Below are positions 3,001-6,000 of a stretch of 64,000 nucleotides of DNA, one piece after another. A program made the position numbers. How positions within the stretch are numbered: position 1 is the first letter of the stretch; each line of letters begins with the position of its first letter. The stretch lies in NCBI RefSeq assembly GCF_057098645.1, contig NZ_CM169472.1. One strand, given 5' to 3'.

Positions 3001-6000
3001 TGATTTCTGAATGAAAGGAACTGATTTATGGGATTGTTTACGACCCGCCAGTTACTCGGTTATACCGAACAAAAAGTGAAATTTCGTGCGCTGTTTCTGG
3101 AGCTGTTTTTCCGCCGTACGGTGAATTTCCATACCGAAGAGGTGATGCTGGACAAAATTACCGGAAAAACGCCGGTGGCGGCCTATGTCTCCCCGGTTGT
3201 TGAAGGAAAAGTGCTGCGTCATCGCGGTGGTGAAACCCGCGTGTTACGTCCGGGCTACGTCAAGCCGAAACACGAATTTAATTACCAGCAGGCGGTTGAG
3301 CGTCTTCCCGGTGAAGATCCGGCTCAACTGAACGACCCGGCCTACCGTCGTCTGCGTATCATCACCGATAACCTCAAACAGGAAGAGCATGCCATTGTCC
3401 AGGTGGAAGAAATGCAGGCGGTGAATGCCGTGCTGTATGGCAAATACACCATGGAAGGGGATCAGTTTGATACTGTCGAGGTGGATTTTGGACGCTCTGA
3501 AGGAAATAACATTGAGCAGGCCGACGGTAAAAAATGGTCTGAGCAGGACCGTGATACGTTTGATCCGACGCATGATATTGACCTCTACTGCGATCAGGCC
3601 AGCGGTCTTGTGAATATTGCCATTATGGACGGTACTGTCTGGCGTCTGCTGAATGGTTTTAAGCTGTTCCGCGAAAAACTGGATACCCGTCGCGGCTCAA
3701 ATTCACAACTCGAAACGGCAGTGAAAGACCTGGGGGCGGTGGTGTCTTTCAAAGGGTATTACGGCGATCTGGCCATTGTGGTGGCGAAAACGTCTTATGT
3801 GGCAGAGGACGGTACCGAAAAACGTTATCTGCCGGAGGGCACGCTGGTCCTGGGAAATACGGCTGCAGATGGGATCCGTTGTTACGGTGCCATTCAGGAT
3901 GCGCAGGCGTTGTCCGAAGGTGTGGTGGCTTCTTCCCGTTACCCGAAACACTGGCTGACCGTGGGCGATCCGGCCCGTGAATTTACCATGACGCAGTCCG
4001 CACCGCTGATGGTGCTGCCGGACCCGGATGAGTTTGTGGTGGTGCAGGTGAAATAATCCGTGAGCGGGGGCGAAATGCCCCCGTGTCTTTTTTCACAGGG
4101 GGCTGATATGGCAACAAAAGAAGAAAATCAGAAACGTCTTCGTCAACTGGCTGGCCTGCTGGGGCGCGAGGCGGATATGTCGGGGAGTGCTGCGGATATT
4201 GCGCAACGTGTGTCTGAGTGGGAAGAGGAGCTTGCTGCTTCCCGGGAGGGCATTATGCCTGGTGATGAGAGCGGGCCTGAGCAAAATCACACAGACGATG
4301 GTGAGCAGTTGCACAACACTGATGCTACGGATGATGTTAAAGCGGTCCGTGTGCGGAAATGCCTGCATGTGATGGGGTATTGCCCGGAGACAGGCCGTCC
4401 CGTTGAACTGACGTACCGGGGCATGCGTGTTCTGGTGCCATCACCACTGGCGACAGCCATGATACAGCACGGAACGGCTGAGCATGCGTGATTTTCAGAA
4501 TGCCTTTGATGCTGCCCTTGCCGGGGTGGACAGCACGATTGTTGAAGTGATGGGGCTCTGTGCGCAGTTCACCTCGGGGGCACAGTGTGGCAGCGAAGTT
4601 CAGGGGGTTTTTGACGATCAGCCGTTTGACCGGCAGATTGTTATTCCGGCGGTGGCATTCAGTGGCGCTAAGCATGAGAGAGAGCATACTGATATTTACT
4701 CCTCATGCCGTCTGATAGTGCGGAAAAACGGTGCTGAAATTTATAACCGTACCGCGCTGGATAATACGCTGATTTACAGTGGCGTTATTGATATGCCTGC
4801 CGGTCACGGTCACATGACGCTGGAGTTTTCGGTATCAGCATGGCTGGTGAATAACTGGTATCCCACAGCAAGTATCAGCGATTTGCTGGTTGTGGTGATG
4901 AAGAAAGCCACCGCAGGCATCAGTATCAGCTGAATTTTATAACCCATATACGGGCGCCAGAAATGGCGCCTTTTTTATTGCAGAAAAGCGAGAGGTAATT
5001 ATGCGTAAACTTTATGCCGCCATTTTGTCCGCAGCCATTTGTCTGGCCGTATCCGGTGCGCCTGCATGGGCGTCTGAACATCAGTCCACGCTGAGCGCGG
5101 GGTATCTTCATGTCTCGACGAACGTTCCTGGCAGCGATGAACTGAACGGGATTAACGTGAAATACCGTTATGAGTTTACGGACACTCTGGGAATGGTGAC
5201 GTCATTCAGCTATGCAGGAGACAAGAATCGCCAGCTGACCCGTTACAGCGATACCCGCTGGCATGAAGATTCCGTGCGTAACCGCTGGTTCAGCGTGATG
5301 GCGGGGCCGTCTGTGCGCGTGAATGAATTGTTCAGCGCGTATGCGATGGCGGGTGTGTCTTACAGCCGTGTGTCGACTTTCTCCGGAGATTATCTGCAGG
5401 TGACCGACAACAAGGGGAAAACGCATGATGTGCTGACCGGAAGTGATGACGGTCGCCACAGCAACACGTCTCTGGCGTGGGGAGCTGGCGTGCAGTTTAA
5501 CCCGACCGAATCCGTGGCCATTGATATTGCTTATGAAGGCTCCGGCAGTGGCGACTGGCGCACTGACGGTTTCATCGTGGGTGTCGGTTATAAGTTCTGA
5601 TTAGCCAGGTAACACAGTGTTATGACAGCCCGCCGGTTCAGGCGGGCTTTTTTGTGGGGTGAATATGGCAGTAAAGATTTCAGGTGTACTGAAAGACGGC
5701 ACAGGAAAACCGGTAGAGAACTGCACCATTCAACTGAAAGCCAGACGGACCAGCAGCACGGTGGTGGTGAACACGGTGGCCTCTGAAAATCCGGATGAAG
5801 CCGGTCGTTACAGCATGGACGTTGAGTACGGTCAGTACAGCGTCATTCTGTTGGTGGAGGGCTTCCCGCCGTCACATGCCGGGACCATCACCGTGTATGA
5901 AGATTCTCAACCCGGTACGCTGAATGATTTTCTCGGTGCCATGTCGGAGGATGACGTCCGGCCGGAGGCACTGCGCCGTTTTGAACTGATGGTGGAAGAG

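What the first reader, a model, noticed from the sequence alone, without database searches (positions are those of the whole stretch)
4484..4933. Chimeric FII-like ORF marks a probable deletion junction
The first ~45 residues align with lambda gpFII, after which similarity ends abruptly while the frame continues for ~100 more residues. The simplest explanation is an in-frame deletion fusing the 5' end of FII to the 3' end of a distal gene, most plausibly the C-terminus of the tail-tip gene J, since lom follows directly. The J origin is an inference; I cannot verify it from memory.
Basis: inference. Interest (0 to 1): 0.45.

Follow-up and report, generated by a model that had tools for sequence, protein, structure and literature searches.

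The report
FII–J fusion scar of prophage deletion
This small gene is the scar of an 11-kb deletion that removed almost all tail genes from an old lambda-like prophage of E. coli O145:H28, joining the start of head-tail joining gene FII to the end of tail-tip gene J; it is ordinary prophage decay, and public annotation already marks it as gene fragments.

Summary
ORF 4484-4933 (149 aa) consists of codons 1-45 of the lambdoid head-tail joining gene FII fused in frame to the last 104 codons of the tail-tip gene J. Residues 1-46 match lambda gpFII 1-46. Residues 36-149 match the Pfam J C-terminal receptor-binding domain (E 1e-31) and lambda J 1018-1131.

Base-by-base comparison puts the crossover in a 15-nt patch shared by FII and J with one mismatch (window 4605-4619), of which 8 nt are exact (TGACGATC, 4612-4619). 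This is the only such 15-mer pair between the two genes.

E. coli E2855 carries the orthologous prophage at the same chromosomal site (next to ybhB-bioA). It keeps FII, Z, U, V, G, T, H, M, L, K, I and J. The missing span is 11,160 bp there, a multiple of three.

The junction occurs in 25 of 5,426 complete E. coli genomes, every serotyped one being O145. RefSeq annotates it there as pseudogene fragments. One strain has a frameshift in it.

The most likely cause is a short-homology (illegitimate) deletion during prophage decay, leaving a non-functional relic. Interest is low.

The parts
4108..4491 (+). FI (DNA-packaging protein FI), intact. Its stop codon overlaps the start of the fusion ORF.
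   Evidence: Pfam PF14000, E 2e-14. RefSeq annotates the identical gene as gpFI, 384 nt.
4484..4619 (+). 5' fragment of FII (head-tail joining protein), codons 1-45. The native start and its overlap with FI are retained.
   Evidence: 100% identical to full-length FII of the O121 RM8352 prophage up to 4619, with no similarity beyond. Matches lambda gpFII 1-46, E 2e-8.
4605..4619 (+). Deletion junction. A 15-nt patch is shared by FII (GGGTTTTTGACGATC) and J (GGGTTTATGACGATC). The exact 8-nt core TGACGATC lies at 4612-4619. Position 4611 carries the FII-type T, so the crossover lies within or just after 4612-4619.
   Evidence: Ungapped alignments to FII and J of three relatives. It is the only FII x J 15-mer pair with at most 1 mismatch, and P(>=8 nt microhomology at random breakpoints) = 2e-4.
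4620..4933 (+). 3' fragment of J (tail-tip host-specificity protein): the last 104 codons plus stop. This is a truncated C-terminal receptor-binding domain.
   Evidence: Pfam PF12421 Ig_GpJ_C, model positions 21-135 of 135, E 1.3e-31. Matches lambda J 1018-1131, E 9e-17. 100% identical to the E2855 J 3' end.
4952..4971 (+). Terminator-like hairpin plus T-run after the J stop codon. It is part of the native J-lom spacer.
   Evidence: Consensus scan. The surrounding sequence is colinear with J-lom of intact relatives.
5001..5600 (+). lom (Ail/Lom outer-membrane protein), intact. It is the native right-hand neighbour of J.
   Evidence: Pfam PF06316, E 1e-117. Colinear with J-lom-stf of Stx phages and E2855.
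5659..6879 (+). Side-tail-fibre-like gene with collagen repeats, downstream of lom.
   Evidence: Pfam phage_tail_N, Collagen and Phage_fiber_C.

Best explanation
The ORF is the scar of one large deletion in a lambdoid prophage integrated beside ybhB-bioA (the lambda attachment region). The deletion runs from codon 45/46 of FII to 104 codons before the end of J. In the closest undeleted same-site relative this span is 11,160 bp. It removed the 3' two-thirds of FII, all of Z, U, V, G, T, H, M, L, K and I, and about 97% of J.

The two breakpoints lie in a 15-nt sequence that FII and J share by chance (14 of 15 identical, 8 nt exact). This points to short-homology illegitimate recombination, either replication slippage or RecA-independent misalignment between direct repeats. 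Both copies of the patch happen to be in the same reading frame (V-F/Y-D-D), so the join is in frame and gives an open 149-aa hybrid.

Shown: the composition of the ORF, the junction position, the microhomology, the existence of undeleted relatives, and the lineage-restricted distribution. Inferred: the molecular route of the deletion, and that the hybrid protein has no function. It has only 45 of 117 FII residues and a J receptor-binding domain lacking its first 20-30 positions. It also sits in a prophage that can no longer build tails.
For: - **Domain content:**
- **Break position:** the left homologue ends at 4619 and the right homologue starts at 4605, confirmed base by base against three relatives.
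- **Undeleted relative at the same site:** E2855 carries nleH, cif and espJ and keeps FII to J. Its J 3' end is 100% identical to window 4612-4933, and the equivalent gap is 11,160 bp, which is 0 mod 3.
- **Second relative:** the O121 RM8352 prophage is 99.26% identical to window 1-4619, with a full FII.
- **Microhomology:** the junction pair is the only FII x J 15-mer with at most 1 mismatch, and random breakpoints give >=8 nt of microhomology with P = 2e-4.
- **No foreign DNA at the join:** no IS or filler sequence is present.
- **Clonal distribution:** the junction is in 25 of 5,426 complete genomes, every serotyped one being O145. These include RM13514 and RM13516, the latter being the non-ST32 strain of PMC7067040.
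- **Existing annotation:** PGAP marks both halves as incomplete pseudogenes.
- **No sign of constraint:** RM9154-C1 has a 1-nt deletion at 4576 that frameshifts the ORF.
- **Other decay in the same prophage:** in RM12581 the large terminase subunit gene is frameshifted, the lysozyme gene is a fragment, and the Q-nin-ren block is inverted next to an IS3 element.
- **Expression signals:** no sigma-70-like promoter lies between 3900 and the ORF start.
Against: - The actual ancestor of this prophage is not available. The undeleted relatives are mosaics: E2855 is only 91% identical over the FII part, and RM8352 97% over the J-lom part. The deleted length (10.9-13.7 kb depending on the relative) and the single-step nature of the event are therefore inferred.
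- The ORF is still open in 24 of 25 complete genomes and keeps FII's start codon overlapping FI, so translation is not excluded. No expression data were examined.
- The frameshift in RM9154-C1 lies in a G-run and could be a sequencing error.
- An 8-15 nt homology does not distinguish replication slippage from other short-homology routes such as Red-type recombination or unequal sister exchange.
Confidence: 0.93

Rival explanations
1. The ORF is a genuine, functional FII-family variant: a head-tail connector with an added receptor-binding-like C-terminus, used by intact phages.
For: The ORF is open, starts at the canonical FII start overlapping FI, and is conserved in 24 of 25 genomes that carry it.
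Against: No phage record of 50,697 spans the junction at DNA level. In the tblastn search, the near-identical hits cover only residues 42-149. The hits reaching >=80% coverage are J alignments at about 50% identity. The only hit that includes residue 1 is FII in PhiR12_2. All genomes with the junction lack Z through I. The left and right halves are 100% identical to ordinary FII and J genes, which lie about 11 kb apart in the relatives examined. One carrier has it frameshifted.
Confidence: 0.01
2. The junction is an assembly artefact: a false join between two lambdoid prophage regions across a short repeat.
For: STEC genomes carry many near-identical lambdoid prophages. J-like sequence occurs at up to 10 places per genome, which invites misassembly.
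Against: The identical junction is found in 25 independently sequenced complete genomes from several laboratories and countries. The exact 149-aa protein is recorded on 464 contigs. The shared sequence is only 15 nt, far too short to mislead assemblers. Flanking synteny to ybhB-bioA is preserved.
Confidence: 0.01
3. The deletion is real, but the hybrid has been co-opted. A cytoplasmic truncated J receptor-binding fragment, translated from the FI-coupled start, might interfere with tail-tip assembly of co-resident or superinfecting lambdoid phages.
For: The frame is open and the translational overlap with FI is retained. Most of the Ig_GpJ_C domain is retained. Strain 16003 shows a 3-SNP patch in the J part that keeps the frame: 2 synonymous changes and 1 N-to-D.
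Against: The first 20-30 positions of the domain are missing. No promoter-like site lies upstream. In RM12581 the late genes are separated from Q by an inversion and an IS3 element. One strain has a frameshift. The lineage is too young and clonal for an open frame to indicate selection. The 3-SNP patch matches other J alleles and looks like gene conversion, not selection.
Confidence: 0.03
4. The deletion arose in several steps or through a mobile element (IS-mediated adjacent deletion followed by IS loss), not from one short-homology event.
For: The same prophage shows IS activity elsewhere: IS2 at 7259-8589 in the window, IS3 and ISEc20 in RM12581.
Against: The junction has no IS remnant, filler or extra bases. 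It sits precisely on the best short homology available between FII and J. Precise IS loss leaving an in-frame join on a microhomology would be a coincidence.
Confidence: 0.03

Closest known systems
Lambda gpFII (head-tail joining / tail attachment protein; PDB 1k0h)
   Same: Residues 1-46 align to gpFII 1-46 (E 2e-8). The gene has the same position and the same start overlapping FI. The first 136 nt are 100% identical to full-length FII genes of STEC prophages.
   Different: Only 45 of about 117 residues are present. The Pfam scan (E cut-off 0.01) returned no FII-family match for the ORF. The rest of the fold is replaced by J sequence.
Lambda-type tail-tip protein J, C-terminal receptor-binding domain (Pfam PF12421 Ig_GpJ_C; PDB 8iyk, 8xcj, 9wca)
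   Same: Residues 46-149 are the last 104 residues of a J protein. They are 100% identical at DNA level to J of the E2855 prophage and 96-99% identical at protein level to J of the closest Stx and other E. coli phages. The lom-stf neighbours are the same.
   Different: The roughly 1,050 N-terminal residues of J are missing, and so are the first 20-30 positions of the receptor-binding domain itself. The fragment cannot be part of a tail tip.
Defective lambdoid prophages of EHEC (deletions and replacements in O145:H28 prophages, PMC7067040)
   Same: This is a lambdoid prophage at a conserved site that carries T3SS effector cargo and has lost morphogenesis genes by deletion. The paper states that deletions of various lengths occurred in prophages at common sites.
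   Different: That paper's main text does not describe this particular FII-J junction in the passages retrieved. The junction and its microhomology were mapped here.

Membership tests
gpFII head-tail joining protein family | Full-length FII domain (about 117 aa) detectable by a family profile | tested here: not met
   The Pfam scan returns only Ig_GpJ_C for this ORF. The PDB search aligns only residues 1-46 to gpFII 1-46. DNA identity to FII stops at 4619.
gpFII head-tail joining protein family | Genomic position immediately after FI and followed by the tail genes Z, U, V | tested here: not met
   FI precedes the ORF with an overlapping stop and start. The next gene is lom, not Z. Z through I are absent here but present in relatives.
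Tail-tip protein J (lambda-like host specificity protein) | C-terminal receptor-binding domain (PF12421) | tested here: inconclusive
   The match is strong (E 1.3e-31) but covers model positions 21-135 of 135. True J-derived sequence starts only at residue 46, so the N-terminal part of the domain is missing.
Tail-tip protein J (lambda-like host specificity protein) | Protein of about 1,130-1,160 aa with N-terminal tail-tip and fibronectin-type domains | tested here: not met
   The ORF is 149 aa, with only the last 104 aa J-derived. Intact relatives have J genes of 3,474-3,531 nt.
Microhomology-mediated (illegitimate) deletion | Short direct repeat present once at each breakpoint in the undeleted parent and once at the junction, with no inserted DNA | tested here: met
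   GGGTTT(T/A)TGACGATC is present in FII and in J of E2855, and also in FII of PhiR12_1 and RM8352 and in J of Stx2a_WGPS2 (RM8352 J differs at one further base). It occurs once in the window at 4605-4619. It is the only such pair between the two genes, and P = 2e-4 for >=8 nt by chance.
Microhomology-mediated (illegitimate) deletion | Independence from RecA or IS functions; actual molecular route | not testable with these tools
   Sequence alone cannot separate replication slippage from other short-homology pathways.

The most novel reading that the evidence does not exclude
The in-frame FII-J hybrid is expressed from the FI-coupled start. Its truncated J receptor-binding fragment then acts as a dominant-negative or decoy against tail assembly or adsorption of related lambdoid phages, including Stx phages, in O145:H28. 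A deletion scar would thus have become a small anti-phage or phage-modulating gene.
Probability: 0.02. Interest if true: 0.45.

Novelty: already known. Interest (0 to 1): 0.08.

Why it matters
Its value is mainly practical.

- **Lineage marker.** The junction is a clean clonal marker for the defective prophage beside bioA in E. coli O145:H28. It is present in both ST32 and non-ST32 reference strains and absent from the other ~5,400 complete genomes.
- **Biology.** It explains why this effector-carrying prophage (espJ, and nleH and cif in relatives) cannot make tails and is fixed in the chromosome.
- **Annotation.** The ORF appears in protein databases under misleading names: 'Phage tail fiber protein', 'Fibronectin type III domain-containing protein' and 'hypothetical protein'. 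It should be treated as a pseudogene fusion.

It does not open a new biological question.

Tried and rejected
- **Genuine FII variant in phages.** Megablast of 4000-5700 and tblastn of the 149-aa protein against 50,697 phage records found no genuine spanning match. The tblastn hits with >=80% 'coverage' are J alignments stretched to residue 15 at about 50% identity, with no real similarity in residues 15-41 (also visible in the 9wca alignment).
- **Assembly artefact.** Rejected because of 25 independent complete genomes and 464 contigs.
- **IS involvement at the junction.** No IS sequence is present.
- **Exact source strain.** I searched with the IS2-bearing segment 6300-9300. No complete genome has that arrangement, so the window's strain is not in the collection.
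- **Literature.** The two main O145:H28 comparative papers were searched for a description of this prophage's deletion. Only general statements on prophage deletions were found. Two search attempts failed on term syntax or returned nothing.
- **Technical.** Loci L002, L005 and L009-L011 were not available to the scripting tool. The regions were re-fetched by accession or aligned with DNA alignment instead.
- **Structure prediction.** I did not predict the hybrid's structure. Both halves are identical to known genes, so a model would not change the verdict.

Full report
**1. What is at the coordinates**

An ORF of 149 codons runs from ATG 4484 to TGA 4933 on the + strand. Its ATG overlaps the stop codon of the upstream gene (ATGCGTGA). 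That upstream gene is FI (Pfam PF14000; 4108-4491 by comparison with RefSeq annotation).

Downstream lie a terminator-like hairpin (4952-4971), lom (5001-5600; Pfam Ail_Lom, E 1e-117) and a collagen-repeat side-tail-fibre gene (5659-6879). Further right are:
- an IS2 copy at 7259-8589;
- an espJ effector gene at 9222-9875 on the minus strand;
- the chromosomal genes ybhB and bioA.

The region is therefore the right arm of a lambdoid prophage sitting in the lambda attachment region next to bio.

**2. Composition of the ORF**

Pfam gives one hit: residues 36-149 to PF12421, the C-terminal receptor-binding domain of tip attachment protein J. It covers model positions 21-135 of 135 with E 1.3e-31.

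Against solved structures:
- residues 1-46 align to lambda gpFII 1-46 (1k0h, E 2e-8);
- residues 36-148 align to lambda J 1018-1131 (8iyk, E 9e-17);
- the best hit is another lambdoid J fragment (9wca, E 2e-34).

**3. The junction**

Megablast against phage genomes splits the region in two. E-FI-FII homologues (e.g. PhiR12_1, 95.6% identical) align up to window 4619. J-lom-stf homologues (e.g. Stx2a_WGPS2, 96.8% identical) align from window 4605. No phage record covers both sides.

Ungapped base-by-base comparison against three relatives shows the pattern below.
- FII reads ...CAG GGG GTT TTT GAC GAT C|CG GAG...
- J reads ...GTC AGG GTT TAT GAC GAT C|AG CCG...
- The window follows FII up to 4619 and J from 4620 on.

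The two genes share GGGTTT(T/A)TGACGATC, which is 14 of 15 nt, with 8 nt exact at 4612-4619. The window has the FII-type T at the mismatch (4611), so the crossover lies in or just after the 8-nt core. In both genes the patch is in the same reading frame (V-F-D-D and V-Y-D-D), which is why the join stays open.

In a simulation on the E2855 sequence, random FII x J breakpoints show >=8 nt of microhomology with a frequency of 2e-4. The junction pair is the only 15-mer pair between FII and J with at most one mismatch. There is no IS remnant or filler DNA at the join.

**4. Undeleted relatives**

*E. coli E2855, bovine, Japan.* It carries a prophage at the same site, with the order J-lom-stf-nleH-cif-...-espJ-ybhB-bioA. 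This prophage retains FII, Z, U, V, G, T, H, M, L, K, I and a 3,477-nt J. Its J 3' end is 100% identical to window 4612-4933. The distance between the two copies of the patch is 11,160 bp, which is divisible by three.

*O121 strain RM8352.* Its prophage sits at a different site near torT. It is 99.26% identical to window 1-4619, has a full FII whose first 136 nt are identical to the window, and has the same espJ cargo.

*PhiR12_1.* FII start to J stop spans about 13.7 kb because of extra inserted genes.

The exact length lost in the real ancestor is therefore about 11 kb but is not known to the base.

**5. Distribution and existing annotation**

A 481-nt probe across the junction is fully covered in only 25 of 5,426 complete E. 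coli genomes. Every serotyped one is O145, labelled O145:H28, O145:NM or O145, and the rest are unlabelled strains at the same chromosomal position. Identity is 99.4-100%.

Carriers include RM13514 and RM13516. The latter is the non-ST32 reference strain of PMC7067040, so the deletion probably predates the diversification of the sampled O145:H28.

RefSeq/PGAP annotates the right half as 'phage tail tip (domain-containing) protein, incomplete, missing N-terminus'. In some genomes it also annotates the left half as 'head-tail joining protein, incomplete, missing C-terminus'. The exact 149-aa sequence is on 464 contigs in public collections under names such as 'hypothetical protein', 'Fibronectin type III domain-containing protein' and 'Phage tail fiber protein [O145:H28 RM13514]'.

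**6. Is the hybrid likely to do anything?**

Several points argue against a function:
- It keeps 45 of about 117 FII residues and a J receptor-binding domain that lacks its first 20-30 positions.
- There are no tail genes left for either part to work with.
- No promoter-like site lies upstream.
- In RM12581 the same prophage has a frameshifted large terminase subunit gene, a lysozyme fragment, and an inverted Q-nin-ren block next to an IS3 element. The late genes are therefore cut off from their normal activator.
- RM9154-C1 has a 1-nt deletion in the G-run at 4576 that destroys the frame, although this could be a sequencing error.

Strain 16003 carries three clustered substitutions in the J part. 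Two of them (both synonymous) match the RM8352 J allele. This looks like a gene-conversion patch from another prophage rather than selection. The open frame in the other genomes is uninformative in such a young clonal lineage.

I rate the hybrid as an inert relic. A residual 2-3% remains for a co-opted role.

**7. Mechanism**

The best-supported account is a single short-homology deletion between two chance direct repeats about 11 kb apart, by replication slippage or another RecA-independent misalignment. The junction and the repeats are shown. The pathway is inferred from the established behaviour of such deletions in E. coli. Sequence alone cannot exclude unequal exchange between sister chromosomes or a Red-type event.

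**8. Comparison with what is known, and verdict**

Deletion decay of lambdoid prophages in EHEC is well documented. PMC7067040 notes deletions of various lengths in O145:H28 prophages at conserved sites. The ORF fails the membership tests for both FII and J as whole proteins; it is a fusion of fragments of the two.

The feature is ordinary and already flagged as pseudogene fragments in RefSeq. What this analysis adds is the exact junction, its microhomology, the same-site undeleted relative and the lineage restriction.

Noticed in passing
window 7259-8589: A complete IS2 copy (1,331 bp, insC/insD-like ORFs at 7305-7715 and 7673-8578). The 5 bp on either side differ (GTATG and TATGC), so there is no target-site duplication. 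It replaces about 3.7 kb that in RM12581 and E2855 holds nleH, cif and other fragments. This suggests an IS2-associated deletion. No complete E. coli genome in the collection has this arrangement.
   Followed up: partly
window 5255-5281 (inside lom): The window's lom is 600 nt (199 aa). RM12581 lacks these 27 nt in frame (573-nt lom, WP_025404262.1), and the other O145 records examined carry the same protein accession. The window therefore comes from a related strain with the longer, E2855-like lom.
   Followed up: partly
window 5659-7258: The tail-fibre region differs from its relatives. BLAST shows window 6442-6506 aligning to two places in RM12581 and E2855, and the window is about 98 nt shorter in the collagen-repeat part. 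This gives a 406-aa ORF that contains both phage_tail_N and Phage_fiber_C, followed by an overlapping 133-aa ORF at 6749-7150.
   Followed up: no
window 9222-9875 (- strand): This 217-aa ORF corresponds to the T3SS effector ADP-ribosyltransferase EspJ annotated in RM12581, E2855 and the O121 prophage. It is the prophage's last cargo gene before ybhB-bioA.
   Followed up: partly
L009 (O145:H28 strain 16003), equivalent to window 4834, 4849 and 4853: Three clustered substitutions in the J fragment: GTA>GTG, GTG>GTA and AAC>GAC. The first two match the RM8352 J allele. This looks like a short gene-conversion patch from another resident prophage.
   Followed up: partly
L008 (O145 strain RM9154-C1), equivalent to window 4576: A 1-nt deletion in a run of five G frameshifts the fusion ORF after residue 31. 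PGAP then calls both halves as separate pseudogene fragments. It could be a real mutation or a homopolymer sequencing error.
   Followed up: partly
L004 (RM12581) 1-13000 and L005/L006 (E2855), left of the window's start: In both relatives the nin/Q early-right region lies on the opposite strand to the late genes. It abuts them through an IS3 element plus a lysozyme fragment in RM12581, and directly at a truncated portal gene in E2855. The large terminase subunit gene of RM12581 is frameshifted. The prophage was already rearranged and defective in other ways.
   Followed up: no
window 4064-4084, 4952-4971 and 5627-5648 (+ strand): Three terminator-like GC hairpins with T-runs lie after E, after the J fragment and after lom. 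The shuffled expectation is 1.3.
   Followed up: no
window 19858-20002 (+), 43938-44008 (-) and 61062-61104 (+): Rfam hits in the chromosomal part of the window: the Moco riboswitch upstream of moaA, naRNA4 (CssrE) and the ES036 (CssrF) sRNA. No tRNA genes occur in the window.
   Followed up: no
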